DNA of 64,000 bases from Haplodiscus bocki (taxonomy: Eukaryota): contig OZ296655.1 of the NCBI GenBank assembly GCA_965655095.1, forward strand, positions 66,526,001-66,590,000, written 5' to 3'. The notes beneath the pieces were generated by a model. The model made no database searches. It was not told where the DNA came from and worked only from the letters and a program-made list of their open reading frames with translations. A program made the position numbers and the translations under genes. This document shows, piece after piece, positions 795-64,000 of this stretch; the stretch's first letter is position 1, and each line of letters opens with the position of its first letter.

Positions 795-3107
795 TGCCGC
801 GCGTCAATTGTTTTGTTAAAAAACGGAACGAGTCTGTAGAACTTTTATCTCTCTATTTTCGGTGCTTTGCTGGCTCTGCGAGCAAAGATGGCGTAAGTTC
901 AATAGCAACAACTCTATGAGCGATGAAAGAGCAATAGAAAATGAAATAATCAATTATTCGGTCTAACGAGGGAGATAAACGCGTTCAAAGGAAATGAAAG
1001 GGAAACAGCGCAAATTGGGAACTGAGTCATGTCTGACTGCAAGGGATAAAATTGGAACTAGGGGGAATCACTGTCTTCTTAAGGAAATTTCTGGTAGTAG
1101 TTGCTCCTTGAATATTGAAAATTTGAAGAAACGTCCTCAGCAGAGGTTAAGATTCCCCCTTGTAAAAAATTTTTACCATTCCATCCAATTTTGTAGTCTC
1201 AAATTCTACTTCATCAAAAAACTTCATATTCAAAAAGCAGATCGCAGAAAATAAAGAATCTAAGAAGATATAAAATAAAGATATTTATAAAGATCTTTAT
1301 ATTTATAAACATATAAAATTTTTATATCTAAGAACTCTGGAAATTACCCAATTGAAAGATTATCCCGTGAAAAGGGCTATTGTTGATCAATTGACTAAAA
1401 AATGATAAGAAAGTTTCACAAAGTTGTCATGATGAAACAAATTTATCCAAAATGCAAAAGATATAAAAGCCCCAAGAGCAAGTGGAAAATTAGGTCATCA
1501 ATTGAACTCAGAAACCAACGGACAATTCAATTACTAAAAAATTTCCAGGAAATTTTATCTGGAATAAGTTGAAGTGAGGTTGAGTAATACGGGTGAGTAT
1601 ATTTTTTGTTTGGGGCTAGGAAGGACAAATTATTCTCCGATTTTTCTAGCGCTGTTTTTTATGGGGTTACTTTCTCACAGTTTTTACGTTTTATTTGTTA
1701 ATTTTATGTCCTATATAAAGTTTTAGCCTTTCATCTACACACCGTAACTAGCAAATTGCCGTCAACGAGTTAAGGTTTCTTAGTTTTTTTCCTAAATCTC
1801 CAAACCGTGAATAAACCTCCGGATTTTTTGGCGGGGCCTGATTTATTTCAAGTTTTATCTAGGACTCAGGTGAAAGCTTGAATTAACAGCAACATGGTGA
1901 ATTTCTTCAAGTCCTTTTTTCTCTAGCCGAGATTTTTGTCTAGCGGATTTTTTGGCAAGGATTCACCAAAAAGTTACTAGGATTGACCAGAGAGATATCC
2001 TCTTTCTTGACTGGAAAATTTTTGACTAGCAGAAACTGTTGATGGAGTCGGATGATCTGCGTGTCACTCTGGAACTCTCCTCCTATAAACTGGACATGCA
2101 TTAGGACTGAATTGGAATTTTGAAAAAAAGAATTGTTTCAGAATATCTGCGATAGGGATGGCTTTGCATATATACTCCGTATCTAGGAATTTAGAATAAA
2201 TTCTAATTTACCACGGCAGCAGAAGAGGTGAGATTTGATCAACTTAAGGTCAAATAAGTCTCTTCGGTGAACCTCCTGAGAACTGTGCAGTTTAAGATTC
2301 ACTTTTGCTTCAGAACCGGAGCTTGTCAGCGGAATTCGCACCTGCTAATACTAAAGATAGCATTAGTGGACACTGTTTAGATTCCAGCGGAAAGAGTATA
2401 GAATAAGTAAGAGGTCGTGCAGTTCAATATTCATTCTTGTTCTAGACCCGAAGTTCGTCCAGGGAATCCGCACACGCCACTACCGAAGCTGGCGTTAGTG
2501 GACAATGTTAAGACTCCAGCTGCAAAAGCATGGAATAGGTAGGCAAAAAGAGGGAATTATTCTAAGTCAGATGGAAAATTTGACTTGGAATAATTTTTGC
2601 AAATTTGGAGTTTGACTTAGAAATTTTAGCCAAAGAAGAGCAAAGAATAGAAAAAGTTTTGACTTAAAATAATTTTTTCCGAAGAGAAGAGGGAGAACAA
2701 ACTGGTTTTAGAATAATTTTGTCTATGATAGTGAACGCGAGAAAGGGAGTTGGACTTAGAACCATTTGTCCAAGTGAAGGGCAGAAGAAGAGTAATTAAA
2801 GCACGTCAAAAAGGGAGTGAGGAGTCACGTCTGTTAAACGGGAAGGAACGTTATGATCGAGTTCGTTTCCCAAATTGACTCTAAAAAAACAGCGTGCTGT
2901 AATTTCAAGCAACCAGTAAAAAATTGGTTTGTACCAAGCATGTTGGCAGCAGGAGCCAATTGGAAAATAACTTTTGTTGGAATTTTTTGTATGAATTATT
3001 TGTGCAACTCCAATTGTTTATTTATTTATTTATTAACTCCAAAGGTTTGCTTTAATGAATTAACGCGTAATTCATTTAATCGTTGAAGCGTTTTGTGTAA
3101 CGCGATA
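795..3107 (-). mobile_element. Diverged family-A LTR (3' LTR of an old element)
   Basis: Minus strand starts TATCGCGTTACACAAAACGCTT (cf. TGTCGCGTTATAGCTAACGCTT) after GGGGTGAGT, as at 61964-61970. 2160-2530 matches the 25570-25920 and 57620-57860 LTR module; 860-925 matches the LTR 3' part (GCTCA...GCAAAGCACC). Left end approximate. Confidence 0.75.
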
Positions 3108-23900: not shown

Positions 23901-25990
23901 TAGCGAGAAATTTGTTGCTGTTTTCATTTGCCTTTTTCACAGTTTTTGTTTCTTTGAAACACTTCAAGAAAAATTGCGTCCAGCCATCGCTAGTCCAAAT
24001 TGTCGCCACTTGGTGTCAATGGCATGACAGAAGTTAACTGTTCTAAAGTTTTTAGACAATGATTCTGTTTTGTATTTCAAAATACAACGGTGTTTTCTTT
24101 TGGCTGAACCGTTAAAGGTTCTCTTTACAGACTATTCGTCCGATTGCGCCCATTGAATTTTCATTGAAAAACCCACAAATTGGAGAAGCTGTGGAAGACC
24201 AAGAATGCTTATCATTTGATTTTTTCTCTGCGATTTTTTTGACGAGTAATTTCCAATGCGAAAACTTATAGCTCTGCATCCTTCTTCAAAGTTGTTTTTC
24301 TCGAAGACTACAAGTTGGATTGTGGTAGGTCAGTTTTCATACTTCTGTACGTTTTTCCCCGAAATGTTTTTTCCCAATAATATTGGTAGGATTTAGGCAA
24401 CTTTGCACATTCGGAAGCCTATAGAAAAAGAGGAGTTGAGGAGAATCCGGGATGTCCCGTTTTAAAGCTTTCACTCATTTTTAGACTTGTTGACTTGGTG
24501 TTTGAGAAGTTTTAGTTTCGTTCTTCGCTGGAACTGATTTTCTGGAGACTACAGGATGAATTGAAGTCATCAAGTGTGTCGCGTTATAGCTAACGCTTAA
24601 ACAGATATATTTCTTAAATGCGAGCAGTAAGCAATTAAACAGGAAATGAATGTTTAATAAGAGAACTGCGGATAGTATTGACTAACCTGGGAGTTGCTGT
24701 TGCTGGTAAATGGCGTGCAATATAAAAGAAAGCTGAAGGATTGGAATTGCCCAAAGAGAAGGAAAAGCAAAATTTCTAAAAGCGTGGAAATGTGGTTCAA
24801 CGCTATTGGCTCAACGACTAGTCACGAAGATGCCGTCATAACTTCGTTTCATAGCTGGTACGAGAAAGCGGCTTGGCCATTATTGACTTACTTGCTTACT
24901 GGACGGCGGCCATACTTATTCCCCTTTATTCAACTCCCTTTCCTTATTTCCTCTTCCTTCTTGCTTGGTTAAAATTACCCTGAATTCTCTTCTTTCTTTC
25001 CGCGGACGAAAATATTCACAGACAATTCCAGCTTGGCTTGCCTACAAATTCTGCCGCTTACAGACCCAACCTTCCAGCTCTTCATTTCTCACCAAATGAT
25101 CCTATTGACTCTCGCCAAAACCGGCGGCCATTTTGAAAATTGAGTATAAATAACCAGCGCACGGCCATATTCATTCATTGCTTGCTAGCCTATTTCCCCG
25201 AGGCGAACCTCTCTTTCTCTTCCCTCTCATCATAATTTTGGAATAAAATCTTAACTCCGAAATTATTCTAAGACAATTTCATAACTTGTCTTTGTCAGAA
25301 ATTCTGTTCTACAGAGCCAACCTTCCTGCTCTCGATTTCTCACCGAATGACCCTATTGGCTCTCGCTCGAACGGCGGCCATTTTGAAATATCGAGTAAAA
25401 ATACCTGGCACACAGCCATCTTTAGTCATTACTTACTTACTTGCTTACCGGACGGCTTACTTCTCTTACCTTACTTTACTCTCTTACCTTACTCTCTTCT
25501 TGCTTTACTTTACTTTACTCTCCTCTTCCCTTTTGCTGGGATAAAATTAATCCAAAATTCTCTCGACACTTTTGCCATCGGAGGATAAACGGTGTCCACT
25601 AACGCTAGCTTCGGTATTAGCGTGTGCTGATTCCGTGGATGAACTTCGGTTCTGAAGCAAGAGTGGATCTTAAATTGCACAACTCTTGCCATCGGAGTAT
25701 AAACGGTGTCCACTAACGCTAGCTTCAGTAATAGCGTGTGCGGGTTCCGCTGACGAGCTCCGGTTCTGAAGCATGAGAGGATCTTAAACTGCACGACCCC
25801 CACGAGGTTCCTAGGCAAAGAGATTTGACGTTACTCATAGACCAAATCTCACCTCGTCTGCGTCCGTTGCAATTAGAATTCGTTCTAATTTGCGAGTTAT
25901 GGATCAAATATGCAGAAACCGTCCCCTTTCCAAAATTGAAACTGTTCCTACCGACTAAACAATTTCCATTGACTTTGCTATTCGCAACGC

Positions 25991-26040
25991 TTTCCTATTG
26001 GTCGATTATTCGATCACGTCATAATAGGGTATAAATACCC
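25991..26040 (+). promoter_or_regulatory. LTR core promoter (inverted CCAAT plus TATA box)
   Basis: CCTATTGG then GGGTATAAATACCC (TATA 26030-26037); conserved at 57934-57977 and 62663-62706. Confidence 0.6.
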
Positions 26041-26296
26041 CGTACTCTCTCACTTTATTCATTCGCTTTCCTACCGTCAACTGGCTTAACTCCCCGAGGC
26101 GAAACTCTTCCACTTTCCTTCCATCATATTTCTAGAGCTTAATTCTTGCTCTGAAAATATTCTAAAACAATTTTGAAACTTGTCTTTGCCAAATTCCTTC
26201 ATCGCCTCTTCACAATTATTCAAAGACTTTTTCGCCTGCAAAATCGTCTTAGCCGCAATTCACCAATATCCCGGAAATATTCAAAGACTTTCCGGC

Positions 26297-26475
26297 CACC
26301 AACAGCAGCAATCAACAGCAACCAGCAGCAGCAAACAGCAGCAATCAACAGCAACCAGAAGCAGCAAACAGCAGCAATCACCAGCAACCAGCAGCAGCAA
26401 ACAGCAGCAATCAACAGCAACCAGCAGCAGCAATCAACAGCAGCAACCAGCACCAGCGACCAGCAACAGCAATCA
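26297..26475 (+). repeat. CAG/CAA-rich 30-bp minisatellite inside the LTR
   Basis: Repeats of ACAGCAGCAATCAACAGCAACCAGCAGCAGCAA-type units; a short degenerate version lies at 58725-58805. Confidence 0.85.
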
Positions 26476-44659: not shown

Positions 44660-46558
44660 TGTCGCAGGCTGACGCCTGTGACGGCCAGACATTCACAGTT
44701 AAACTTGGCAGTCTCTGCACGGGCACGCAAGTCAATCCGTCGCCCTTATACCCAGACTACAATATTGACAAAAATTCATTTGAATAAATGCTGTATGAAG
44801 GATACCTACCTTATTTCACAAACCTACCATACCTACATATATATACACCTACGCAAATACATATATATTCCAAAATATTGACGTGTAAGTAACAAAATCC
44901 CTACTATCAACAAATGCGTTAGCATCAATAGGAATATCAGTCCAGACACATGTGTACGGTACTCAATCGAGGCGCAGTGTTTTACTTAATACTGATTGGT
45001 CAAAACAATTAATTCTGTCAAGTTTCTGACCAACTAGCTGCACTATAAGTGGGTGGTCAAAAGTTGGTCACAAAGACCTACTTTTGACCAGTTTGTTCAG
45101 AGCACGTGGCCACACCTAAAAAGGAAAAACGGCAAAACAAAGCACTGAAAGCCGAAATTTGACCAATACTAATCTAATGACGCTTTGAATGCTGTTGATA
45201 CTTAATACAAGAACATATACCTAAATTATATTTTATTCCAAACCATGCAGTGCTTTTTGCCAGTAACTTTCCGGTGAAAATTTTAGTTTGTCGACAGACG
45301 GTAAAAGTGACCGCATTATGACCACCAAACATTAATCAACCCAATCCCATGAAAACAGTCAAGTATTACCATTTGTGCCATGCCGCACTGATTTAATCAT
45401 GTAATGATTTTTATTAACGTGTGTCAAAATAAACAGGCTGTCGCGACATGAAATGTCCCTTCATTATGGGAACCAAGTTAGCTGATATCATATATACTTC
45501 AACCATCCCATTGAGGCTCCTGGAAACACCTTTTTTTTCGTATGCATGTAATCGTGTTTCATGTAATTTTGCTTGCACCTTTTGCTTTCGTTTAGTTTGT
45601 CACCACCAAATTTTGCCTGTCATCATTTTTCTGAGTCCCTTTTTGATGTACAAAAATGTGCTATTTTTAGAATGATACCATACTGTTGTCACGTAGGAAC
45701 CGGCATACTTACTTAATGTTTGATTTAGTTATTGTTACAGGTATGACGTCAACGAGTCAAGTGCTTTAATTTGCTATCAAACAGAAGGTCAACGAGAAGA
45801 ATCTTGACCCGAAGTTGACCCGAAGTTGGAATCAGATCATCAAGAACTCTCCTGTAAAGCATTTGCTCAGAACTGTAAACAAAACTGAGAGCTTTCAATC
45901 TCATTGCAATATTGCTTAGTTGCCGTTTATCTCAAAGTATTGTTGTTCCATTGATTCGTTTTTGCTATAAGAATAGCGAACTTGTTGAAGCAAACATGGT
46001 TTCAACTCGGAAGAAATAACAGTCAAATAGAAGGCTTCTTAGCCAATTAGATGACTTTGATCAAGATGTTTATATTGGTGACACTGCAAACAACGGACAA
46101 AAAAATGATATAGTCACTAATGGTACAGTTGACCGAGAATTTACTGTCATTAATAGTGGTAGTAATTCAATAGCCAAAGGGAATACGGTGAAAGTTCAAA
46201 CATTGGAAAGATGTTTCAATGAAAGGATTGACAAGGAAATGAACAACATCGTTGATACGATTGAAGATAGAATCCAAAACGCAGTTTTGGCCACGATTTT
46301 GAATAATATCACACCAAGGATTGTTTTATCAGTTGGGTCAAAAATGCGTCATCTGGACCAGACGCTGCTAGTGTCACGGGATCTTCGGAACGCGGAGAAC
46401 GCATAGGATTACTGCCTTTTTTGAAAACGTATCCAAAAGGAACATTGCATTTCATGTATTAAGTGCGAATGATGAGACTCGAAGAAACGTTCCAGACGAG
46501 GTAAGTGAATTGTTGGTCTCAGAAACACATTTTCACCGGCAATCACGCACTTATCACA
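44660..46558 (+). mobile_element. Family-C solo LTR, 1899 bp
   Basis: TGTCGCAGGCTGACGCCTGTGACGG...CACTTATCACA; TSD GTTTC/GTCTC (4 of 5); decayed MVSTRKK ORF from about 45996 to the LTR end. Confidence 0.88.
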
Positions 46559-47531
46559 GTCTCGTTTAACGGCTTAGCTCCAGTGGGTTGTTCTTTGTTT
46601 TGCTAGAGATTTCGTAACATCTGCTTGAATTTTTTCTGAAAAATTTTAGCTTTTCAGAGCATATGGCACGTACATTGCCACTTTTTCCATATGCAATTTC
46701 TAATAAATCTCGAATTTTTTTTGTCTGAGAACTCTGGATTTTTGATTGACATGTTTGAATTATCATACTTGTAATACTTTTTGTAATGCTTTTGAAGTTG
46801 AAGTACCTTTGAGATGCCCTCCTTGTGAAGCAAACTAGAAATAGGCTTGCCAGCAAATCAATTTGCTGAAAAACTCATCGATTTGATTTCTTGAAAATAG
46901 GTCGTTTAAAAAAATTCATACTTTTCAGAATTTTTCTCGTAAATTGGAGACTTCCACAGGTTGATTCGGTTCACGAAGAGGCTGACAGGTCAGGTACATT
47001 CTTCCCTTTTGTTGCACGAAGAGTTTGTCTGAAGTCTGAATGTGTTATAATTTTGACCGAGAATGCTAATTTTTTAAAACTGTTTTCCCTGTTTTTGTCG
47101 ACTGAGTACTGGCCGTTGCACAAAAGTTGCACAAAATTCATCTTCGGGTTTTAATTAAGCTTAAACGTATTGCATATATAATCAGAACGTTACACAATTA
47201 TTCAATGTATGACTACTTGGGTTATAGATAACTTTCTACGGCTTCAGGGCTGGGCCCAGCCATAACTTAGTAAACCCCATGGAGGAACCTTAGTAAGTAT
47301 CTCTACCCCAGCGGTATTCCTGCTCATGTACTACGAACATATTTCCCCTTACTCATCTCTGTCATGCTAAAAATTCTCAGCTTCATCCTTTGGTTGCAAA
47401 ACCGGGTCTTTCTTTGCAATTAGCACACGCTACCGAGCCTGACTACAGTGGCAATTTTTTTGTGTTTTTTTTAACCTATAACTACAGTTGCACTATTCTT
47501 TGCTTGCTTGAACGTAGTTTCACGAGAGTAT

Positions 47532-47939
47532 TCAACAAGACAATAAATATTTGTGAGGATTTGTTTCTGCCCCTGAGATGGGGGAAGAAACCTCCACTTC
47601 AGGCCCAGGATCGTCTGAGGGACGATCCTCATTGGTTCCCTGGTTTTCTGAATTGTTGCTCCTAGAGGTTCCGGGGGCAACTACGGAACAAGTCCGAACT
47701 TGTGGGTTCAAGAGAAACTCGTCAAGTTTCGACAAGGCTCCCAAAATACGTGATTCCGTCCTGCTAAATTCCTTTGAGAGCTTTTTAGTAACTCTCCCTT
47801 CAATCTCCTCGGAGACCTGAGAGATATACTCCTGAGTAAGTTCTGGATCTAGAACGTTTGGTGCTCTCCCACTTCTAGTACTTTCGGGTGTTTCCCTTGA
47901 AACTGCTGCTAACTTTCTCTTATTTCTCAACGTTGCCAT
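47532..47939 (-). CDS. Intact LTR-encoded Gag N-terminal segment (basic N-terminus plus predicted coiled coil), 135 aa, last residues from flank
   Basis: MATLRNKRKL...YISQVSEEIEGRVTKKLSKEFSRTESRILGALSKLDEFLL...NPH; the homolog at 50824-51221 continues into a capsid-like Gag. Expression unknown. Confidence 0.6.
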   Translation of the reverse strand: MATLRNKRKLAAVSRETPESTRSGRAPNVLDPELTQEYISQVSEEIEGRVTKKLSKEFSRTESRILGALSKLDEFLLNPQVRTCSVVAPGTSRSNNSENQGTNEDRPSDDPGPEVEVSSPISGAETNPHKYLLSC

Positions 47940-49337
47940 TACGCTTGGGAAAAGGTTTTCTCAGTGGTGAAGACTGAATTTTCTACTTTTATTTCTTGTA
48001 TCAAAGTGAGGTCTCTCTCTTTAATTATGAGGGAACAAGTCTTCTCAGTACAAACAGTTAAAGTTTTAATAATTGTACAGTTCGGTAAGGCAACAATTTA
48101 AATAATAAATATTGTACTTTCGTTTCTCCTATTTATACCTTTCCTTGGCGGGAAACATAATTGTTTACACGCCAGATCAAGGTACAAATAGGGAAAAGTA
48201 CTTTAATCATATTATATATCAAAGAAAAGATGCCGACTCTGGCGGGAAATAAACACCTTTCCATCCATTTCTTCCCTCACGGACCGCGTCCTTTCCATCT
48301 TTCGACAGAAAAGAGTACGGTCCGATCCGTCGGAAATGGACATCAAAGTGGTTATTCCCGCGCCGACACAATAAATAAAAACATAAACAAAGATCAAAGT
48401 CATTTCCATACAGGGAATAAATACAATAATACACTTGGAAAGTAATCTAAAGTATGGAAAATAAAGGCTTACATTCTAGAAAGATTCATGTTTTCATGTT
48501 GCATCGATTTAAAGTCATTTCTAGAACAAACTAGGCGTAAATCCTAGCCCGTTCCACGTTTCTACTAGGCTACGGCTCACTTCAGCCGTGGTGGCACGTG
48601 GCGGCTACGTGCCCCTTGTAGCACTGCCTTCCGCAGTACTACTGAGAGGAAATGAATCCGGTGGCACGTAGACAACACGTGGCCGACCAAAGTTGCGTAG
48701 CCTAATAGCGCATCTGATTGGCTAAGAGCTCTAGTGACATCACCAGATTAGTTACGACGGAACACATACGGAACAAATATTCACTTTTGAAGTCAAGCTC
48801 TGTTCTAATAGTTGATCTATTGAAACTTTTGAAAACTTTTGAAGCTGTCAATCTAAATAGATTACTGCACAATCAAAGGTGGATTTATATAATAATTAGT
48901 TAGATTAATTATATAAAATAGCACCTAATATAAATATAACAATACACTGAATATCCGTTTGTTCCGTATCTGTGCCGTCCCAATAAGGATCAGTTCACTA
49001 GAGTTCCACGTACCGGGTACGTGCTTTTTCACAATATGGGGGGGCACGTAGTTACTACGTGCCTTTTATGAATGGAATCGTATGGGTGGCACGTGGACGC
49101 CACGTGCCACTTACGTATCCCATTCGTGTTTTTGTGCATTAGTGGGGGCACGTATATATACGTGCCCATATGTGTGCACACAATTAAAATACATGATTTA
49201 TCATAAATAAAATCATCAATTTAGTAGTCCCAGATATAAGTCTGATAGAGGCATAGTTTATCTCCTGCTTGATGGGCCTGGGGTGTCCTTTGTTGGTGGA
49301 ATCATCTGCCCGCAGGCTTCGCAGATGCGCTGCGACA
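47552..49337 (-). mobile_element. Family-B solo LTR, 1786 bp
   Basis: Minus strand TGTCGCAGCGCATCTGCGAAGCC...CCTCACA with a perfect 5-bp TSD ATATT/ATATT. Confidence 0.93.
48130..48154 (-). promoter_or_regulatory. Family-B LTR promoter: E2F-like TTTCCCGCC plus TATAAATA
   Basis: Conserved at 50603-50629 on the plus strand; an AATAAA lies about 50 nt before the ATG (47988-47993 minus; 34722 in the other copy). Confidence 0.55.
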
Positions 49338-50823
49338 ATATTTTATTCGAACGGTCTTTTGAGCAAATTTTCATTGACGGAAGTGAATTGCGAAAGCTGT
49401 TACGTAATGGTTGCATAAATGAGATTTGCCAGCAGCATTCATTGAACTAATCAAATTGAAAAACGCTTACGTACGTCTAAATGTACTACATTGTATTCAT
49501 TAACCCGTGTCATTTCGGCCACTTAAAATAAATTTTTGCGCTGCTGTTTCAACATTTGTCGCACCACGTCTGCGAAGCCTGCGGAGAGACTCTCCCTACA
49601 AGAAAGAACATTCCTGGACCCTCCAGAGACTGAAACAGACTTTACAAACACTAAATTGTATGTTTTATTTACAAATTAAACGTATTTAAGATATCTGATA
49701 CTGAGCAGTTACGTATTATGTAATTTTATAAAAATTGCATGTAATCGATACGTATTAACTACGTAGCATCCCAGTGCACTGATCCAGATTGGGACGGAAC
49801 TGTTACGGAACAAAATGAATATTCACCTAAGTCTATGTTCCTAATATAATCTACTTTGAAGTTGCTATTTTATTACTTATTTGTGTACTGATCATAAAAA
49901 TCCACCTTTTCAAAAGTTAAGTGCAGTAATTTAAAGCGAATATGGCAATGTCAATAAGTTTGATTAGATCGATTACATCTGCAGTAAATAGAGCTTGACT
50001 TAAACGTGAATATTTGTTCCGTACGTGTTTCGCCGCCACCAATCTGGTGACCTCACTTCAATTTCATTCCTTTGTGCTACTATGCTCTGCCGTTTCTAGC
50101 CAATTACGGAAAAGTTCCGTATTACCACGTTTTCACTCCTATAGCCGCAATGCTACAAGCAATGCTACAAAATGAATACGGAACCATTCAGGAACGGCCT
50201 TGTAAAAATGAGAAACAGAACAGTACGTGCTAGTAGAAAACCTAGTACCGGTCTAAAATGTTCCGAAAAGATGATGAAATATGTATTTTGAGCATGTAAA
50301 TTGAATCTTTGTATTATTTTATGTGATCAGACAAATTACTTTTATTATTATTTTTATTGATTTCCGATTTTGGGAAAATGTTTGACTTTTTGTCGGCACG
50401 GTAATAAAAGCTTTGATGTCCATTTCCGACGGATTAGGCCCGTACATTTCCTGTCGAAAGATGGAAAAGATCCGGCGTATGAGGGAAGAAATGGATGGAG
50501 AGTTGTTTATTTTCCACCAGAGTCGGCATTTTGCTTTTGTAGTCAATATGATTAAAGTACTTTTCCCTATTGGTACCTCAACTTGGCGTGTGAACAACTA
50601 TGTTTCCCGCCAAGGAAAAGTTATAAATAGGAAAGATGAGAGTACTATCATTAATATGAACTATTGTATTGTACTGTATAACCAGTTTCGAGTACTTTTC
50701 AATTTGGTTAACTGTTGTTGGTTGGACACCTACTTTTGTTAAAAAAAGGTCATTTTCAGTTGTGTTAAAATTCATTCGAGAGACAAAGTAATTCAATCTT
50801 CACAACTGTTGAAATTTTTCTCT

Positions 50824-52001
50824 ATTCCAAAGTTAAAAAACAAGAGGAAGTTAGCAGTTATGGCAAGGGAAACACAAGAGTATCCTGGGAACAACCAGTC
50901 GCAAAACTCCTGGAATCACTGAGGAGTACAAAGCACAAGTTTCCGAGGAGACCCAGAGAAGGGTTACTAAGAAATTATCCCAGGAATTCAGCAAGACAGA
51001 GTCCGGCATCTTGGGTGCTCTGTCCAAGTTGGACGAATTTTTCTTGAACCCACAGGTACGGACACGCTCCGGAACCGTTCCAGGAACATTCCGCAACACA
51101 AACGGCGAAAACCAGGAACCAAATGAGGATCGTTTCCAGGATGATCCTCATCCTGAAGTGGGACCCCCTGTCTGTCAGTCCCGTCATTCATCTGATTCAG
51201 ATCCAGAGGAGGCTCCTCACATGGTGACAGGTGTTCAAGAAGAGTTTCGCTTTTGTCCTCACAAGGTGACAGGAGTTCAAGAAGTGATTCCCTATTGCTC
51301 CCCTGGGACTTCTTCAGGAAAACAAAAGAAGGCGCGCTCGACAAGTCAGCCACAAATTCGCAGTGAGAACACCCCTGCAACAATTGAAGCAGACCAGATT
51401 TTGTTGGCGCTTTAACAATTGGCAAGTCACAATCTTTCTACTAATTTCAACAAAAACATTATCAGAATATTGAAATTGCCCAATTCCCTCACGACAACAA
51501 TGCCTACATTTGATGGGAAATCGGAAAAAATTGAATTTTTTGAAAATCTGCTCCGAACAAGTTTGAAAATTCACAACCAACTCAGGGAAGAAGTCAGAAT
51601 ACACTATTTCCACTCTCTCATGCTTGTTGATGAGTGATGCTTTGCTGACGTTCAAAAACATCGGCATCCCCCGCAGAGAGAATTTTTCAGAAATCCTGAG
51701 TGTGTTTCGTAAGAAATACGTAAAACCCCAGTCAATGGCTACGGCGAAACACAAATTTCAACAGTTAGTTTTCAATCCAGCGAACCGGAACTCAAATGAT
51801 TTTCTGTAGGAGCTCCAGAAATTAGCAAAAGACGCATTCGGAGTTGCTGCCCAAGCAATAATTGAACAATTCATATATGCAAAATGCTTCTCCACCTGAA
51901 GAAATCAATTAATCAGGCTCATTTGGAGAATGGGACCTATGAACAGATTGTGGCGCATCTTGAAACGGAGGTCGAGCTAAATGGTTTGGAAGCTCCTGAC
52001 G
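50824..52001 (+). pseudogene. gag: Retrotransposon gag pseudogene (capsid-like)
   Basis: LKNKRKLA...LSKLDEFFLNPQ...PHMVTGVQ...MPTFDGKSEKIEFFE...IHYFHSLM...KKYVKPQSMATAKHKFQQLVFNP...; stops and frameshifts present. Confidence 0.8.
51222..51236 (+). promoter_or_regulatory. Primer-binding site, tRNA-Leu-like
   Basis: TGGTGACAGGTGTTC directly after the LTR-terminal CA; resembles TGGTGTCAGGAG, the complement of the tRNA-Leu(CAG) 3' end. A second copy lies 42 bp downstream. Confidence 0.65.
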
Positions 52002-52287
52002 AAATACGAAATTTTCCGAGAAGATCGAAAGATGGGTTACAAAGAAATTATCCGAGGAATCAGCAGGACACAGTCCTGCATTTTGAGTGCACTGTCCAAG
52101 TTAGACGAGTTTCTTCTAAGCCCACAAATACGGACATTCTCTGGAACGACCCGGGAACATTCCGGAACACTGACGTAGGAAACCAGGAACCAAGCGGGGA
52201 TCGTTCCCAGAATGATCCCCGTCCTGAAGTGGAGCTCTCTGCCGGTCTTTTCGGCAATCTAACTGATTCAGACCCGGACGAGACCTC

Positions 52288-52956
52288 TCACAACATTTTT
52301 CCACGATGGCCAATTTTGCAACGTTTTGCGATTGATAACTTCCATATCTTTGTATGCGTGTGATGAGTCTCAGTGCTATCTCCTGACGCTACGTGGTGAG
52401 TGAGTGATTGTTGGTCAAATTGTGTACCCGCGAACGACAATTCGCTTACTCTGTCATGGGGATTGCGACGAGTCTCATCGTTTGTATTTGTCAGGCCTAA
52501 TGTACTGTTGTTTTCAGATGCGCTTCCAAAAGAGGTGTTAATCCTCTCGTGATCCCTACGTTCTGAGTTTCCAGATACACTGGTTACATCCCGTCCAGAA
52601 GATGCATTTATTGACCTTATAGCTAACTCAATTTTAGGGGCAACGATGTTGTCAATAGCGACCAAAATTGCATTCTGTATCCTATCTTCAACGGTATCCA
52701 CAATATTACTCATTTCCCTATCAATCCTTTCGTTAAAACACCTCTCCAAAGTTTTCACATTCAATGCATTCTCATTAACTGCCGAAATAACATTAGAAGT
52801 ACCACCGGTAAAATTCTGGTCATCAATACCCTCATTGACCACAACATTTTCTCGCCTCTGGCTTGCGGTATTGCCAATGATCACGTCCTGGTCGAAGTCA
52901 TCTAATTGGCTGAGGAGTCTTTTGTTTGACTGCCTTTTCTTTCTGGTAGAAACCAT
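52288..52956 (-). CDS. Intact LTR-encoded ORF (probable Gag N-terminal segment; basic N-terminus plus coiled coil), 222 aa with about 23 aa from flank
   Basis: MVSTRKKRQSNKRLLSQLDDF...LERCFNERIDREMSNIVDTVEDRIQNAIL...THH; four decayed homologs in the window. Gag identity is by analogy to family B. Confidence 0.6.
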   Translation of the reverse strand: MVSTRKKRQSNKRLLSQLDDFDQDVIIGNTASQRRENVVVNEGIDDQNFTGGTSNVISAVNENALNVKTLERCFNERIDREMSNIVDTVEDRIQNAILVAIDNIVAPKIELAIRSINASSGRDVTSVSGNSERRDHERINTSFGSASENNSTLGLTNTNDETRRNPHDRVSELSFAGTQFDQQSLTHHVASGDSTETHHTHTKIWKLSIAKRCKIGHRGKML

Positions 52957-54293
52957 ATTTGTTTAATAACTGAATTGTAATAACAGTGAAAATTAACAAT
53001 AACACAAAGAGTAAAATGATACTTCAAATTATAAAGTTAGCCAAGAGGTTTAACAAGCACAAAGATTAGTGTCAGTTATGAGAATGTTTTAATCAACTGT
53101 TTTTCAGGATAGCAGTTTTCTCAACCGTTTTTTGTTGTAACAATTTTCCTTCTCAACTGCTTTTTGTAGTCACTAATTTCCTTCTGATGATTGTTTTTCC
53201 TTTCAGGTTCGCCCCTCTTCCTCCATCTTCGTCAGCCAATTGGGTAATCCTTTTCCTGACGTCATGTGCTCGGTTTTTATTTATATTGAACATCAAAGGG
53301 GGTTCAACCCGGACTATGCATTTCATCATAATGACGTCAGTTTTAAAATAGAAGTACAAATAACATCAAAAGGGGTTTGGCCCGAAATATATTTCATCAT
53401 CATGACGTCAATTTTAAAAATAGTAACAAGAATAGCATCAAAGAATATATGCCGCAAAACAATGACCATCAAAAATATGGTTATGGAGGCTGGATAAACG
53501 TTCAGGGACAGTAAAATCATGTTCACATGCATATTCCATGTAGTAACTGGTTAAATCTAGTTATTATATACTAAATATGGCAAAAATATTAATATTAAGC
53601 TTCATGTACAAGTTTTAACTTTAGGTTAATGTATAGTGGTCAAACGTGGGCGTTATGACCATGTTTTGACCGGATAATATTTGTCGCTCAGGATTTGATA
53701 CTACTCAGCACTAAATAATTTTATGTCACGTGATCACATAATTATGCATTCATATAGGTACATAGCAACATTTTCTAGTTATATTTATTCGTGCATTGGC
53801 TTTCTGATTACGTTTGGCCGTATTTCGCCTTTTGTTTGGAAGCGACCATTTGCATTGAGCAAAGTGGTCAAAATCAGGTCCCAGTGACCAGTTTTGACCA
53901 TGTTCAGGCGGCGCTTCTGGTTGGTCAGCGTTTGATACGATCTCTTGTCTTTGACCAATCAATTTTGAGTATGAGACTGTAGATAAGTTGCGCACTGTAA
54001 ACATTTGTCTATGACCTTTCCTTCATGATACAAACTTCATCGATATTTGTATGGATTTTGTATATAAATATATAAATATTCATAAGATCATATATATATT
54101 TATATATGTTAATATATAAATATGTATGAAATATAACTTCAAAATGGGGGGCATGTTTATCCGGCGGTTTATTAAGCAATAGTTTTATTATATCAGTCTT
54201 CTAATAAGGGCAGAGCATGGCCCTGTGTGACTGAGTTCTGTCCATTGTAGTTGACGGAGTAGATCATGCCGTTACAGGCGGCAGCCTGCGACA
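52359..54293 (-). mobile_element. Family-C solo LTR, 1935 bp
   Basis: Minus strand TGTCGCAGGCTGCCGCCTGTAACGG...ACTCATCACA with a perfect 5-bp TSD ATGCG/ATGCG. Confidence 0.93.
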
Positions 54294-55829: not shown

Positions 55830-58098
55830 TTTAGCAGGGAAAACTTGCATGTTGAATCCAAGGATAAAAATAAACTTTTTGGAAAATATACGAATGTAAA
55901 GCAACTTCCATGGAAATTTCATGCAACGTGCAAAATCTTGCAAGAAATTGCCAGCAACATGGAAGACTTCTCACAAAATATTCTTGCAAAAATTCGAGGG
56001 AATGAAAATTTGGTTTCACACAAAATTGTAATCACTACTTCACCTAAAAAAAGTAGCAATAGTTATTTTTTTGGCTCGACTTCAAATATTGAAACATTAG
56101 AGCAAACTTTCAACTCTGAATCGAAGGGAGTTTGAACCTACAAGAAATGGTTTTCAGTTGAGAAGAATTTAGCTTTACCCTGCAGCATTTCTTTTGTGTA
56201 GGTTTTATTACACAAAAAGGTTTTGTACAAAAAGGTGAAAGATCGATTAATTTTCCCAAGTTTATCAGCTAAAAACCTATTTTCTGTTTTCAACACTTCA
56301 GGGGTCACAATCAAGAAATCAATAAAACGGATAAATTATCTATTCAACCAGAACTTGGTTGCACGCTTTATGTGAAACGTGCATGAAAAACATCTAATGT
56401 AGGTGAAAAATCTTGTAAAACAGAAATGCTGTGGTTGCTGTCAAATTTTGTAGCTTTTAGGTAAAGCTCTTAAAAAATACCCATGGTGCATGGAAGAAAG
56501 TTGCACACATTCTAAATCAGACTAAATACATGCATGTGAGCTTCTTCCTGAATCATTGACAATCTTNNNNNNNNNNNNNNNNNNNNNNNNNNNNNNNNNN
56601 NNNNNNNNNNNNNNNNNNNNNNNNNNNNNNNNNNNNNNNNNNNNNNNNNNNNNNNNNNNNNNNNNNNNNNNNNNNNNNNNNNNNNNNNNNNNNNNNNNNN
56701 NNNNNNNNNNNNNNNNNACGATTTATTACTTTACTTCTGCAGTCGTGGAACAGAGGTGAAGCGTATGACGATATTTTGCTTATACAGCTGTTCGACTATT
56801 TCTTGACACAAACAGATGTGCTGAAAAATTTGAAGTTTGGGAAGTTTTATAGCTTCATAAATTGTTGCAAGAATGAAATAACGTAACATCAAGGGAATTT
56901 GTGGAGGTTCCTACAAGAATTTACAAAACGACTTTAGAACGGATAAAAACTCGAGAACATTGCTTCAAAAAGTTCAAGCAAAATATAGATCATATGAGCG
57001 ATGACGTGTCAAGGTATTACGTACTGAAAGTAACAGGACAAATAAGAGAGCAGTTTTTCACCTTTTATTCATGAGTAAGTAAGTGACAAAAACCGTCAGA
57101 TCGTGTATGACACGAAACTTTGTATGATGTCTTTTCCTTTTGCTGCTGAGATGTTTTATTTCCTGGGAACTCACAAAACATACGGTTTCGAAGACAAAAA
57201 GTTCAGATGCAATATCATGAAAAACGGTTTACTTTCCCAGTTGTCGCGTTATAGCTAACGCTTAAACTAATGTAAAAGGAAAGAAAAGGAAAAATTCTAA
57301 ACGCGTTGAAATGTGGTTCAACGCACAAAATAAAGACACGTGCGCGTTAGCTACATTTTGTAGCTGGTAGATGAAAGCGGCTTGAATATTACTGACTTAC
57401 TCGCTTACCGGACGGCAGCCTTAGTTCTTTCCCTTTTACTTTATATTACTCTCCTCTTCCCTTTTACTTTACTCCTTTTCCTTTTAACGTTATTTTCTTT
57501 CCATTCTTGCTTGGTTAAATTTATTCTAAATTCTCTTCCTGCTTCTCTTCGGACAAAACTATTCCAAGTCCCATTTTCATTCTGACTTAGAAAAATTTCC
57601 TCTTTCCTTCTACAAATTCTATACTCTTGCCATCGGAGTATAAACGGTGTCCACTAACGCTAGCTTCGGTAATAGCGTGTGCTGATTCCGTGGATGAACT
57701 TCGGTTCTGAAGCATGAGTGGATCTTAAACTGCACGACCCCCACGAGGTTGCTAGGCAAAGAGAATTGACGTTACTCATAGATCAAATCTCACCTCGTCT
57801 GCTGCCGTGGTATTTAGAATTTACTCTAAATTCCGAGTTACGGATTAAATATGCAGAAACCGTCTTTTTTCCAAAATTCAACTATTGCTACCGACTAGGT
57901 AACCTTCGTTGACGTTGCTATTTGCGGCGCTCTCCTATTGGTCAATTACTCGATTCCGTCATAGTGGGGTATAAATACCCCGTACTCTCTCATCCTATTG
58001 ATTCTCTTTCCTACCGTCAACCGGCCTAATTCCCCGAGGCGAAACTCTCTCCCACTTTCCTCTCATCATATTTTCTAGAGCTTAATTCTCGCTCTGAA

Positions 58099-58715
58099 AA
58101 TATTCTAAGACAAGTATAAATCTTGTCTCTGCCAAATTCCCATTCTTCGCATCGAAAAATTTCTAAGACAAGTCTAAATCTTGTCTTTGCTAAATTCCAA
58201 TTACCTCTCAACGAAAATATTCTAAGACATTTTTAAGTAATGTCTTTACCAAATTCCAATTGCCTCTCCTTGAAAAAAATCTATGACATTTTCAAAAATT
58301 GTCTTTACCAAATTCCAGTCGCCTCTCATTGAAAATATTCTAAGACATTTTCAAATAATGTCTTTACCAAATTCCAATCGCCTCTCATTGAAACTATTCT
58401 AGGACAATGTTAAAACTTGTCTTAGTCAAATTTAGTCATCACCTCTTCGAAATATTCTAAGACAATTTTAAAACTTGTCTGAGTCAAATTTCTTCATCAC
58501 CTCTTCGAAATATTCTAAGACAATTTTAAAAATTGTCTTAGCCAAATTTCCTCATCGGCTCTTCGGAAATATTCAAAGACTTTTTCGCCTGCAAATTTGT
58601 CTTAGCCGCAAAACGTCAATTTCCTGGAAATATTCAAAGACTTTTGCGCCTGCAAAATTGTCTTAGCCGCAAAACATCGATATCTTGGAAATTTTAAAAG
58701 ACTCTTCCGCCTACA
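58099..58715 (+). repeat. About 11 tandem 58-61-bp units with an internal AAGACA...TGTCTT hairpin (also 62828-63444)
   Basis: Consensus close to AATATTCTAAGACAATTTTAAAACTTGTCTTTACCAAATTCC...CCTCTC...GAA. Confidence 0.9.
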
Positions 58716-59120
58716 AGCAGTATCCCAGCCGCAACCAGCAATCATCCAGCAACCAGTAGCAACCATCAGCAATCAGCCGTAATCAACAACAGACAACATC
58801 AACCCGACCAATGCCAGCCCCTAACGTAAAAGACTATATGAGTAATTCCCCTTTTCCTTACGCGCAGTTATATTTCCTTCACGGTTCAATATATTGAATT
58901 TTCACTGTTTATAATTTAAAATTCTTTTGTATTCTTCTTCATAGCTCACAAGTCCTTGCTTGAAATCACGCAATCCCTTTGTTCGCACGTTAAGCAAGGC
59001 ACCCTAATGAGACTTATAAATAATAACCGTCGCTATAGTATAGTAGTGCTGATCGAGTCAAACGCCAGCACAACTGAGTAATTAATAGATTTGCAAAACC
59101 CCCTACCACGTGCAACAAAC

Positions 59121-59137
59121 TGGAGCGACCAGTGAGG
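59121..59137 (+). promoter_or_regulatory. Primer-binding site (tRNA-Thr-like, tentative)
   Basis: TGGAGCGACCAGTGAGG 3 nt after the LTR; TGGAG...CCAG.GAG resembles the complement of a tRNA-Thr 3' end. Confidence 0.55.
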
Positions 59138-59224: not shown

Positions 59225-60386
59225 ATGGCTGCTGCTCATCTCGCTTATCCCGACCTGGCGGTGGACAAATTTTCTGGCACAGACCCCGATCAAGATGCCG
59301 AATCTTTCAACCAACTAATCGAACGAAAAATCAACTTTGCTCTTGGAGACGCACCTGCAGATGCTGGTGAACTGGTAAACTACACTTTCAGGAAGAAAGC
59401 GCTCTTTACTCCGAGGACCAGCCGCTGAGTGGTACGAGAGCAATATTACCAACGCAACAACCTGGGAGAATGTTCGAACAAATTTCATCACTAGATTTTC
59501 AGATAGACGAAACAAATTCCGATACCGCATGGAAGTGGAACATTGTATTAGAGGAGATGGAGAAGAAATTCGGAACTTTTTACACCGTATCAAACCAACG
59601 GTTGATAAAGGATGGCCCGATGATATGAACGGTATTGAGGCCGCTCAACAAAATGCGGAACGGGCAGCACAAGGCAGACAAAGGAGACAAAGGTACATGG
59701 ACTACAGTTTCCGAGGACTTAGACCTAGATATCTGCAACGGAAAGCTCAAGAATATCTAATGGAGCGTCCAAACGCCACGTGGAACGATTTCTGTGCTCA
59801 TATAATTCAAGAAGATTTGATACTAGAAGTATCTTCGACCTTTCTATCCCATGAAGCACAAACCAAAGCAGAATTGGCAACACTTGGACATGAGATAAAA
59901 AACCTTCGATCAGAGTTGAAAGAATATCACGTCATTGCCGTAGTAATAACTTCACGAACTTTTCATCCCAATCAACAGGGAAGACAAAAAACTACCCGAT
60001 TCTGTAATTACTGCCATAAAAATGGACATACACTAAATTGGTGTCGCAAAAAGATGCGAGATGAAGAAGTACGAAAAATACGCAATGATATGTCATCTAA
60101 AAGGATTATCTGTCTCATGAAGAACTCTTCCACTGAACAATCGAACCGTAAACCACCAAACAATGACGCCATGAACGATTTTCTTCATCTGGACGATAGA
60201 AACAGCCCATCGATCGAACGGCTATCTAACGAGGATGCAAATTGGCAACATGAAGATGAACAGTTTACTCCTCCCGAACGAAGACTCTTTCCAAGGAACA
60301 ATGGCATGAGCTTCAATAAGGCAGAAGCTACATCAATCGGCGAGTCTGACGGTGAATCATCGGACTCACTTCCGTTAGGTTTCTGA
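59225..60386 (+). pseudogene. gag: Gag with CCHC zinc knuckle, one frameshift near 59408
   Basis: KFSGTDPDQDAESF...; after the shift LLRGPAAEWY...TWENVRTNFITRF...; CNYCHKNGHTLNWC fits Cx2Cx4Hx4C; stop at 60386. Confidence 0.88.
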
Positions 60387-63300
60387 AGCCTCCAAAATCT
60401 CTTTTATATATTTTTTTTACCCCCTTCAAACTTTTTGTAACTTAACTATAGTTGATTGCACCTTCTTCATTGCTTACGTCTAATCCAACATCTATTCTTC
60501 TAATCCAAATAACCGGCATCAGACATGCATACAGAAACCTTCTCAGCAAAGATTATCCACGCAATTAATTACCTGGAATTCTTGACCCGCAAGGAAATCG
60601 ATCATAATGCCATGGCCACACCAAAAACCAACCAAAATTAACTCTTCGCTGCAAATGGAAAACAAGCAACTCCAATAGAAGCATATAAACAAGGAAAACT
60701 TTTGGAAAACCAGTATCAAACTTTCAAAATTCTGACGAAAACATTTCTTCAAAGTCAAGATCGGGATTGCTGAGAATCTACTCGCTGCAATGCTCAAACC
60801 AAAACAGCCTAAACAGAAGGGTTCGCCAGCCTCTTTGTGACCCTAATAATCTCCGAAAAATGGATGAATGGGAAAACCAAAGCCTGGACGATCTTCTGGA
60901 TTTTAGACCGAGACCCTGGGGTATTTCACGAGGTGTCACTGATCAGCATCCCACCCACGATTCAATAACTAAATTTGAGACAGTTGTTCTTCATGCTTAC
61001 AAGCCTGGAACAATTTCGAAATTACTTTCATGGATCCCCTAAATCAATTTTTCTGAAATATTCTATTCGTTTTCTTTCCGGATAATAACTGAAGGGCCCA
61101 CACTTCTCTTACTTGTTGAAACTTCACTAGCAGACCAAAAGGAACTGAGCCTGACGAAGCTTTCCAGACGACATTACTCTCAAACAAGCATAACAAACGG
61201 CCTGAAAATAGGCTGACAGACTCTAATAACTTTGATACTAATTACGGAAGAAGCAAATTTCATTTGGCACTTTTTTGACGATACTGGGTTCGATCCAGCG
61301 TCCTCTAAAAAAATCTCGGCGTCGTTTTAATAGTAGTGGAGCTACTACTATAAAATTTTAGCTCCTACTCTGTCTTAGTGCCCACAGAGCGCTGGTTTGA
61401 TAATAGGGCATTCGTCCATAGCTATTCCTCTGGCAGAATAGAGAGACCTTTTCCACTTGGGAATCCGGTGGCGAAGTAAGCTATTTTTCTTTTCTCCCGC
61501 TAACCTGATTGCAGATGAAAGTTAGGTTACACAAAGCTTACAGTAAACATCTTGATTGCAGCTAGAAGATTATTGGGTCTTGGCCAGCTGTCCTCATTAT
61601 CCCAGACGTAATATATCCTTCACATTCAACTTCTAGTACGACGTACTTTTCTAACCCAGCCTCGGCTGACGAACAAAACGAGAACAATTAGCAAATCACA
61701 GCTCAACTCCCGCCTCCACGATGGTTTATTTTTCGACTTCGCTACATGGGAAATTATCTTTCGGGACAACTGACGAAACGACCAGTATATTCAGATAACA
61801 TTTTGCCTACTCGAGTGAAATGTGGTTCCCCTACAAGCTGTCACTGCTCTTCCTCAATCAGGATTTTACACTCTCTAGAATTGTTGCTTTGCCAAACTCT
61901 ACCCACTCATCCCGTTCACTTTTCCCTAGCACCCCACAATCATTTTTCTATCCCTTTAACCCCGGTGAGTTGTCGCGTTATAGCTAACGCTTAAGCAAAT
62001 GTAAAAGGAAAGAAAAGGAAAAATTCTAAACGCGTTGAAATGTGGTTCAACGCACAAAATAAAGACACGCGCGCGTTAGCTACTTTTTGTAGCTGGTAGA
62101 GGAAAGCGGCTTGAATATTACTGACTTACTCGCTTACCGGACGGCAGCCTTAGTTCTTTCCCTTTTACTTTATATTACTCTCCTCTTCCCTTTTACTTTA
62201 CTCCTTTTCCTTTTAACGTTATTTTCTTTCCATTCTTGCTTGGTTAAATTTATTCTAAATTCTCTTCCTGCTTCTCTTCGGACAAAACTATTCCAAGTCC
62301 CATTTTCATTCTGACTTAGAAAAATTTCCTCTTTCCTTCTACAAATTCTATACTCTTGCCATCGGAGTATAAACGGTGTCCACTAACGCTAGCTTCGGTA
62401 ATAGCGTGTGCTGATTCCGTGGATGAACTTCGGTTCTGAAGCATGAGTGGATCTTAAACTGCACGACCCCCACGAGGTTGCTAGGCAAAGAGAATTGACG
62501 TTACTCATAGATCAAATCTCACCTCGTCTGCTGCCGTGGTATTTAGAATTTACTCTAAATTCCGAGTTACGGATTAAATATGCAGAAACCGTCTTTTTTC
62601 CAAAATTCAACTATTGCTACCGACTAGGTAACCTTCGTTGACGTTGCTATTTGCGGCGCTCTCCTATTGGTCAATTACTCGATTCCGTCATAGTAGGGTA
62701 TAAATACCCCGTACTCTCTCATCCTATTGATTCTCTTTCCTACCGTCAACCGGCCTAATTCCCCGAGGCGAAACTCTCTCCCACTTTCCTCTCATCATAT
62801 TTTCTAGAGCTTAATTCTCGCTCTGAAAATATTCTAAGACAAGTATAAATCTTGTCTCTGCCAAATTCCCATTCTTCGCATCGAAAAATTTCTAAGACAA
62901 GTCTAAATCTTGTCTTTGCTAAATTCCAATTACCTCTCAACGAAAATATTCTAAGACATTTTTAAGTAATGTCTTTACCAAATTCCAATTGCCTCTCCTT
63001 GAAAAAAATCTATGACATTTTCAAAAATTGTCTTTACCAAATTCCAGTCGCCTCTCATTGAAAATATTCTAAGACATTTTCAAATAATGTCTTTACCAAA
63101 TTCCAATCGCCTCTCATTGAAACTATTCTAGGACAATGTTAAAACTTGTCTTAGTCAAATTTAGTCATCACCTCTTCGAAATATTCTAAGACAATTTTAA
63201 AACTTGTCTGAGTCAAATTTCTTCATCACCTCTTCGAAATATTCTAAGACAATTTTAAAAATTGTCTTAGCCAAATTTCCTCATCGGCTCTTCGGAAATA

Positions 63301-64000
63301 TTCAAAGACTTTTTCGCCTGCAAATTTGTCTTAGCCGCAAAACGTCAATTTCCTGGAAATATTCAAAGACTTTTGCGCCTGCAAAATTGTCTTAGCCGCA
63401 AAACATCGATATCTTGGAAATTTTAAAAGACTCTTCCGCCTACAAGCAGTATCCCAGCCGCAACCAGCAATCATCCAGCAACCAGTAGCAACCATCAGCA
63501 ATCAGCCGTAATCAACAACAGACAACATCAACCCGACCAATGCCAGCCCCTAACGTAAAAGACTATATGAGTAATTCCCCTTTTCCTTACGCGCAGTTAT
63601 ATTTCCTTCACGGTTCAATATATTGAATTTTCACTGTTTATAATTTAAAATTCTTTTGTATTCTTCTTCATAGCTCACAAGTCCTTGCTTGAATTCACGC
63701 AATCCCTTTGTTCGCACGTTAAGCAAGGCACCCTAATGAGACTTATAAATAATAACCGTCGCTATAGTATAGTAGTGCTGATCGAGTCAAACGCCAGCAC
63801 AACTGAGTAATTAATAGATTTGCAAAACCCCCTACCACGTGCGACACAGATTTTTTTCAAAATCTCAACAGCAAGCTACTGCAGTAACTAGATACCTGAC
63901 GTATGATCAAACTTAGTGTCCCAAAACATTTCAAGCAAAAATGCGATGGATTAAGATCTTTGATGTGGGGACAAACCTCTGACATTTTTGCAAAACCGAA

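What the first reader, a model, noticed from the sequence alone, without database searches (positions are those of the whole stretch)
57623..57739. Conserved ~114-nt module in family-A LTRs: candidate structured RNA or ribozyme, or an antisense micro-ORF
Seen: six copies (57623, 62352; tandem at 25568 and 25682; tandem on the minus strand at about 2281-2398 and 2413-2530); among the best-conserved parts of otherwise divergent LTRs. Hairpin ACGCTA-GC-TTCG-GT-AA-TAGCGT changes to ACGCCA/TGGCGT and TGCTA/TAGCA. Hairpin GAAC-TTCG-GTTC changes to GAGC-TCCG-GTTC, keeping a UNCG loop. CGGAGT/ATTCCG (TGGAAT/ATTCCG, GGAGTC/GATTCC) can pair, as can TCCACT/AGTGGA or ACTCTTGC/GCAAGAGT. One copy reads CTGACGA-hairpin-TGAA in hammerhead-like order, but the core is non-canonical. 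It lies upstream of the TATA box, so it would be in the 3' UTR of the genomic RNA. Competing reading: the antisense frame MLQNRSSSTESAHAITEASVSGHRLYSDGKSIE differs mostly by synonymous changes between two copies.
Basis: partly seen in the sequence, partly recalled or inferred. Interest (0 to 1): 0.75.

Follow-up and report, generated by a model that had tools for sequence, protein, structure and literature searches.

The report
Folded RNA cassette in retrotransposon ends
The long terminal repeats of several related retrotransposon families carry a swappable 245-base cassette whose inherited mutations mostly spare its hairpin stems, so it likely folds as RNA and likely acts as a protein-binding signal that helps the element's RNA be exported or packaged, rather than as a known self-cutting ribozyme or a small gene.

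Summary
All six copies are real. The 114-nt module (D1) is half of a ~245-nt cassette, (D1)n-D2, in the LTRs of Ty3/gypsy-type elements. 164 of 166 arrays end in exactly one D2, with 1-8 whole D1 units before it. Lineage-inherited substitutions avoid breaking stems: 4 of 64 break a pair, against 223 of 560 copy-private ones. One loop swaps among UUCG, UCCG, GCAA and UUAG on a kept stem, and frequent G-U pairs point to the sense RNA. Limits: each double-sided change is only 1-2 independent events, the helices were partly chosen after seeing the data, folding z-scores are weak, and D1's global fold is unresolved. It is not a canonical hammerhead (0 of 186 units have both core halves) and has no Rfam match. 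The antisense micro-ORF lacks its ATG in 127 of 194 units. In another carrier family the cassette lies downstream of TATA and Inr and upstream of an AATAAA hairpin (R-like), so it is not confined to U3. Best reading: a new cis-acting structured RNA signal, likely for export or packaging, exchanged between autonomous and gag-only families. No RNA data were available.

The parts
57242..59117 (+). 5' LTR of a gag-only Ty3/gypsy-type element (TG...CA ends)
   Evidence: 99.57% direct repeat with 61968-63846; ends read
61971..63846 (+). 3' LTR
57623..57736 (+). Domain D1 (the finding's module). Best-supported hairpins: P1 57631-35/57645-49, P3 57657-64/57669-78 (UUCG loop), P4 57696-99/57704-07 (tetraloop). 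Long-range pairings unresolved
57743..57864 (+). Domain D2, always single and last. Helices 57743-49/57792-98, 57799-802/57853-56, 57805-08/57840-43, 57813-19/57824-30
62352..62593 (+). D1-D2 cassette in the 3' LTR
25568..25923 (+). D1-D1-D2 cassette (114-nt period) in a second LTR that has TATA-like units both upstream (25144) and downstream (26030)
2157..2529 (-). D1-D1-D2 cassette (132-nt period) in an older LTR of the long type, followed by the AATAAA-hairpin region
57935..58005 (+). CCAAT-like box and TATA box downstream of the cassette in this family (promoter use untested)
59121..59137 (+). Primer-binding-site-like TGG tract right after the 5' LTR (tRNA partner not identified)
   Evidence: position inferred from LTR element anatomy
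59226..60386 (+). gag region, interrupted in this copy (longest open frame 59379-60386); no other ORF of 120 aa or more between the LTRs
   Evidence: Pfam Retrotrans_gag E=6e-5, just under the curated cut-off

Best explanation
The module is half of a 245-base LTR cassette that likely folds on the element's sense RNA and likely serves as a protein-binding signal that would help the unspliced RNA leave the nucleus, persist or be packaged. Shown: the cassette's architecture ((D1)n then one D2), its presence or absence by family, shared young variants in autonomous and gag-only families, and a substitution pattern that spares stems. Inferred: folding in vivo; local hairpins P1, P3, P4 and the D2 stems; a position at the RNA 3' end in all carriers and at both ends where the TATA is upstream; exchange by template switching between co-packaged RNAs; additive benefit of extra D1 units. 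Untested: which protein binds, and whether export, stability or packaging is served. I put structured sense RNA under selection at about 0.75, and this class of function at about 0.5.
For: Lineage-shared substitutions break a modelled pair in 4 of 64 cases, against 223 of 560 private non-CpG ones. With RNAalifold's own helices it is 3 of 64 vs 178 of 560; with the single-sequence MFE of D2 it is 9 of 37 vs 158 of 320. Transitions only: 15 of 16 keep the pair vs 50 of 90 (p=0.004). None of 3000 random helix sets reached the observed keep fraction. 15 of 65 pairs change on both sides (shuffles 8.9; 1 of 500 as high). The P4 loop is UUCG 94, UCCG 34, GCAA 19, UUAG 17 of 186 units. At least eight pairs are commonly G-U on the + strand, which would be A-C on the minus strand. 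RNAalifold on 21 well-preserved copies draws P1, P3, P4 and three D2 helices unaided (-43 kcal/mol). The cassette is in 20 of 20 gag-only family-A loci and 7 of 7 loci of a family with 78% gag identity, of which L193 encodes protease-like, RT and RNase H domains. Both families carry the GCAA variant while most of their LTRs do not align. 23 of 166 arrays hold 2-8 whole D1 units.
Against: No single pair is significant after phylogeny: the pairs whose output was visible rest on 1-2 supported independent contrasts, no better than unpaired control columns (output partly cut; one search shows unpaired column pairs at the top of raw covariation). An antisense-fold control also gives a depletion of breaks (16 of 64 vs 287 of 560), so those p-values overstate the case. 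D1 MFE z-scores are only -0.05 to -1.9; my nested model lies 5-20 kcal/mol above the free MFE, and a rod-like MFE fold fits the variants nearly as well (4 vs 2 breaks of 26). RNAalifold on 67 copies including decayed ones gave only -6 kcal/mol and 15 pairs. Cross-family identity reflects recent exchange, not deep conservation. Young sister LTRs lack the cassette (L203-L205), so it is dispensable. Nothing here addresses function directly.
Confidence: 0.5

Rival explanations
1. D1 is a self-cleaving ribozyme of a new or hammerhead-derived kind, perhaps active only in an alternative fold or in tandem, that defines RNA ends as in retrozymes.
For: The purines G73 A74, G76 A77 and G89 A90 A91 are near-invariant and fall in hammerhead core order. 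A type-III-like fold is no worse in energy than my model in 8 of 13 copies. D1 forms tandem arrays. Ribozymes in terminal repeats of retroelements have precedent (PMC4209133, passages read; PMC4918200, search listing).
Against: CUGANGA is present in 28 and GAAA in 39 of 186 units, both in 0; the position that would need U is C in 183 of 186; three extra bases lie between the short stem II and GAA. The stem I of that fold competes with P1, whose pairs vary compatibly at three positions. No Rfam ribozyme hit. Cleavage in U3/R would remove the cap or poly(A)/R of an autonomous, protein-coding element (inference).
Confidence: 0.1
2. The cassette is an exoribonuclease block (xrRNA-like) or a 3'-end-processing structure. 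A compact 5' H-type pseudoknot (ACUC 3-6 with loop GAGU 16-19, plus P1 and an A-rich connector) would stall a 5'-3' nuclease, or the fold would present D2's AUUAAA as a poly(A) signal.
For: The geometry of such a pseudoknot is present and its bases are near-invariant. Tandem duplication is typical of xrRNAs (recalled). The family-A LTR has no AATAAA downstream of position 57329; its only ATTAAA lies in D2 at 57844. Long structured R regions that bring a distant poly(A) signal to the cleavage site are proposed for HTLV/BLV (PMC12789967, passages).
Against: The pseudoknot stem shows no covariation, and ACUC has a second candidate partner (96-99) that RNAalifold prefers. The hexamer is ACUAAA in 35 of 112 copies. 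A paper search for xrRNA with retrotransposon listed no such case.
Confidence: 0.15
3. The cassette is a DNA-level enhancer or passenger block. It is amplified by reverse-transcriptase slippage and swapped through flanking 58-bp repeats, and its apparent pairing pattern comes from a few founder lineages, transition bias and hairpin-templated mutation.
For: Few independent events; weak folding z-scores; conservation similar to the core promoter; absence from young sister LTRs, with repeat units on both sides in L235. Enhancer duplications are common in U3 (recalled).
Against: Wobble-type changes and UUCG-to-GCAA loop swaps on a kept stem are RNA signatures. Shared changes cluster in loops (45 unpaired vs 21 paired, while private changes are 186 vs 218). 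Duplications keep D1 whole in 164 of 166 arrays.
Confidence: 0.2
4. An antisense 33-codon micro-ORF explains the conservation.
For: Where the ATG exists the frame is usually open (64 of 67).
Against: The ATG is absent in 127 of 194 units; lineage-variable sites show no third-position excess (about 9 of 23; hand count); D2 is equally conserved and lies outside the frame.
Confidence: 0.02

Closest known systems
MusD transport element (MTE), MPMV CTE and HTLV-1 RxRE (cis-acting RNA export elements of LTR retroelements)
   Same: Structured RNA of a few hundred nt at or in the 3' LTR of an LTR retroelement; multi-stem with possible pseudoknots (MTE ~400 nt next to the 3' LTR, RxRE in the 3' LTR: PMC4588558, part 1 of 2 read; CTE 234 nt: PMC12789967, passages).
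   Different: No sequence or Rfam match; found in a Ty3/gypsy LTR; built as a repeatable domain plus a terminal domain; present or absent between sister families; no export activity shown.
Hammerhead ribozymes of retrozymes and Penelope-like elements
   Same: Sits in terminal repeats, occurs in tandem, and has GA..GA / GAA purines in core order.
   Different: No unit has the full core, there is no U at the cleavage triplet position, and stem II is out of register.
Pistol ribozyme
   Same: An A-rich UUAAA strand between two helices recalls pistol's conserved A3 linker (PMC6101554, passages).
   Different: No Rfam pistol hit in monomer or dimer context; no 6-bp loop-loop pseudoknot followed by G-C-G; the order would have to be permuted.
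Structured retroviral R regions (TAR, poly(A) hairpin)
   Same: In L235-type LTRs the cassette lies between TATA/Inr and an AATAAA sequestered in a conserved hairpin.
   Different: R would be 0.8-1.1 kb, against 15-250 nt in retroviruses (PMC12789967, passages); in family A the cassette lies upstream of the TATA; transcript ends are not mapped.

Membership tests
Ty3/gypsy-type LTR retrotransposon (host element) | Paired LTRs with TG..CA ends, PBS, gag; pol in the order protease-RT-RNase H in autonomous relatives | tested here: met
   the integrase position was not covered by the fetched stretch; this window's element has no pol
Hammerhead ribozyme | CUGANGA and GAAA core in one unit | tested here: not met
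   28, 39 and both 0 of 186
Hammerhead ribozyme | U16.1 paired to A15.1, followed by a single H17 | tested here: not met
   The facing base is C in 183 of 186 and three bases separate stems III and I; numbering recalled
Hammerhead ribozyme | Self-cleavage in Mg2+ | not testable with these tools
   no assay; no RNA run listed
Any Rfam family (ribozymes, snoRNA, tRNA, 5S, IRES, xrRNA, CTE) | Covariance-model match | tested here: not met
   0 at gathering over the window; only chance hits with E>=1.6 in three E-value scans; ARAGORN 0 in 5 sources
Pistol ribozyme | Three stems, loop-loop pseudoknot, A3 linker, G40-C41-G42 | tested here: not met
   Only the A-rich linker resembles it; no CM hit; a permuted model was not searched
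HDV-like ribozyme | Nested double pseudoknot with 3-bp P3, P1.1 and catalytic C in J4/2 | tested here: inconclusive
   Checked by eye against a recalled description: the helix that would be P2 is broken in 29 of 67 rows; no Rfam hit; no descriptor search run
Retroelement RNA export or packaging element | Conserved sense-strand RNA structure near the RNA end | tested here: inconclusive
   Aggregate signal positive, single pairs underpowered
Retroelement RNA export or packaging element | Confers export, stability or Gag binding in cis | not testable with these tools
   needs reporter or binding assays
Protein-coding micro-ORF | Kept start codon and synonymous excess | tested here: not met
   hand count

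The most novel reading that the evidence does not exclude
D1 is a previously unknown catalytic or nuclease-blocking RNA class: a self-cleaving or XRN1-stalling pseudoknotted module that gypsy elements carry as a swappable, dosage-amplified LTR cassette. It would be the first such element inside the LTR of an autonomous animal LTR retrotransposon, and it would cut or trim the genomic RNA at its ends.
Probability: 0.15. Interest if true: 0.85.

Novelty: new variant of a known kind. Interest (0 to 1): 0.45.

Why it matters
Cis-acting RNA structures are well described for a few retroviruses and mouse retrotransposons, but my searches listed none described inside a gypsy LTR as an exchangeable, copy-number-variable cassette. 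Here natural variants exist with 0, 1 or up to 8 D1 units, and the same young alleles are shared by an autonomous and a gag-only family. That makes a direct test possible of how non-autonomous elements get handled by a partner's machinery. The motif is short enough for immediate probing and cleavage assays.

Tried and rejected
Rfam and ARAGORN: nothing. A tRNA-like D-arm/anticodon-arm resemblance, C/D K-turn, SECIS, twister, HDV, hatchet and 5S resemblances were considered from recall and dropped for lack of their defining features or any CM hit.

D1 and D2 share an architecture and short words, but their sequence similarity is not significant (174, 271 and 957 of 2000 shuffles as high).

The four-way-junction model used for CM R1 (30-34 with 70-74) is broken in a large subfamily (26 of 67 at one pair). 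Its only double change comes from one satellite array.

Distant homologues: none in 400 kb of random genome, in 20 loci of the 480-aa gag family (several windows did not cover the whole 5' LTR), in 7 loci of the 458/441-aa and 6 of the 485-aa families (LTR coverage of the last not verified), or in viral contigs. One metagenome record holds a close copy (L171).

RNA: no RNA holder listed; the laid runs were contigs of unknown kind and cannot show ends or strand. A search for poly(A)-tailed retrocopies after the AATAAA hairpin found 0.

The tree-simulation null for all-pair covariation did not run (one search stopped after the raw table) and was replaced. Earlier scan findings: none.

Rows dropped before counts: the C3 satellite array loci and overlapping duplicate loci; copies over 97.5% identical (142 to 112 rows); 67 of these rows plus L227 went to alignment A3 (66 + 1) and 21 hand-picked well-preserved copies to A4.

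Full report
Observation. The pair at 57623/62352 lies in the two LTRs (57242-59117, 61971-63846; 99.57% identical) of a gag-only element with a PBS-like tract and a Retrotrans_gag match. The window comes from a 1.5-Gb assembly in which the first look gives 2210 candidates for the module, of which 40 were scored. Forty random 10-kb stretches held none, which fits a density of a few per Mb at most. The organism was not identified.

True extent. Downstream of the last module, about 125 nt are equally conserved (D2). Across fetched loci, excluding one satellite array and duplicate loci, the layouts were D1-D2 in 141 arrays, two D1 in 21, three in 1, eight in 1, and 2 truncated arrays without D2. 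D2 never stood alone or doubled. The sample is biased to loci found with D1, D2 or gag queries. Periods of 113-114, 128-133 and 141-148 nt point to repeated, separate duplications that keep D1 whole.

Distribution. I fetched elements of five gag subfamilies. The cassette is in 20 of 20 family-A loci and 7 of 7 loci of a family with 78% gag identity, of which L193 encodes protease-like, RT and RNase H domains. It was not found in 7, 6 and 20 loci of three other subfamilies. Between family A and the autonomous family, this block aligns at 85-91% and little else in the LTR does beyond a short upstream piece and the repeats. Both families carry the same young loop allele GCAA, so the block is exchanged rather than anciently conserved. 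L235-type and L204-type LTRs are one lineage with and without the block, which in L235 is flanked by 58-bp repeat units. It is therefore an optional cassette.

Position in the RNA. In the L235-type family a TATA box lies 275-920 nt upstream in 16 of 30 copies, 13 of them with a TCAGT initiator-like motif about 30 nt later, and none lies downstream. An AATAAA held in a hairpin follows the block cleanly in 11 of 30; the same hairpin occurs in the autonomous family and in L204/L205. The LTR at 24750-26500 has TATA-like units on both sides. By inference the cassette is R-like in some families and U3-like in others; what all share is a copy near the 3' end of the genomic RNA. No transcript data were available.

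Is it structured? I separated substitutions inherited by lineages from those private to single decayed copies. Shared changes break a modelled pair in 4 of 64 cases, private non-CpG changes in 223 of 560; D1 alone gives 2 of 26 vs 101 of 236. Shared changes also concentrate in unpaired columns. Double-sided changes occur in P1, P3, the 64-68/100-104 helix and three D2 helices. The P4 loop alternates among UUCG, UCCG, GCAA and UUAG, and many common variants are G-U on the + strand. RNAalifold on 21 well-preserved copies draws P1, P3, P4 and three D2 helices unaided, and single-sequence folding recovers the D2 helices in 5 of 7 copies (partly in a sixth), with z from -0.4 to -2.9.

The local hairpins are therefore likely. 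The long-range fold of D1 is open: nested stem, rod, 5' H-type pseudoknot or a switch among them.

Ribozyme and micro-ORF. Hammerhead-order purines are near-invariant, but no unit has both core halves (0 of 186), the base that should be U is C, and stem II is out of register. Rfam finds no family. The antisense ATG is missing from 127 of 194 units.

Mechanism. An optional, dosage-amplified, sense-strand structure near the end of an unspliced retroelement RNA, kept by a gag-only family that must borrow a partner's enzymes, most resembles the cis-acting export and packaging signals of LTR elements. I commit to a protein-binding RNA signal for export, stability or packaging (0.5). The rivals are a DNA-level or passenger block (0.2), a nuclease block or 3'-end structure (0.15), a ribozyme (0.1) and the micro-ORF (0.02).

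Literature seen. PMC4588558: part 1 of 2 of the text. PMC12789967, PMC4209133, PMC6101554, PMC3362945 and PMC6765202: keyword passages. PMC4918200 and others: search listings only. No supplements were read; ribozyme or TE catalogues held in supplements could bear on novelty. Nine searches listed no description of this motif. Hammerhead numbering, tetraloop stability, initiator and poly(A) motifs are recalled, not taken from calls.

Verdict. A real, uncatalogued, probably structured RNA cassette in gypsy LTRs; a new variant of a known kind of element; function untested; interest 0.45.

Noticed in passing
window 58095-58700 and 62824-63430: Tandem ~58-bp repeats, each able to form a hairpin. Related units occur in the other LTR families examined, in variable number, and flank the cassette in L235, so they may mediate its gain or loss.
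   Followed up: partly
L192 ~3250-3285; L204 2156-2196; L235 ~1950-1985; window ~1800-1835 (minus strand): AATAAA sequestered in an 8-bp hairpin, conserved across gag families, like a retroviral poly(A) hairpin.
   Followed up: partly
L204 1905-2165; L192 ~2990-3350: A further conserved, apparently structured region downstream of the cassette position. In L204 a ~130-nt unit of it is tandemly duplicated and has A-rich internal loops like D1 and D2; the LTR may be an array of RNA modules.
   Followed up: no
G000:C3:80473700-80483820 (L086-L088, L091-L109): A 10-kb satellite of D1 units (147-bp period, some 50 listed matches) with higher-order repeats. One lineage changes both strands of a possible 30-34/70-74 helix.
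   Followed up: partly
L193 6464-10000: The pol frame of the autonomous partner has a weak Macro-domain match between protease and RT (E=2.8e-4, below the curated cut-off).
   Followed up: no
L227 1496-3730: Chimeric element: long-type LTR joined to a family-A gag, showing LTR swapping between families.
   Followed up: partly
window 25007-25467: Two extra CCAAT-TATA-initiator-like units in tandem upstream of the cassette in this LTR.
   Followed up: partly
window 27624-33452: A 2.9-kb tandem duplication at 99.8% identity containing a piece of the LTR 3' end.
   Followed up: no
window 45700-53000 and 18600-19420: Several diverged copies of another repeat with 120-220-codon frames; the two frames scanned had no Pfam match.
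   Followed up: no
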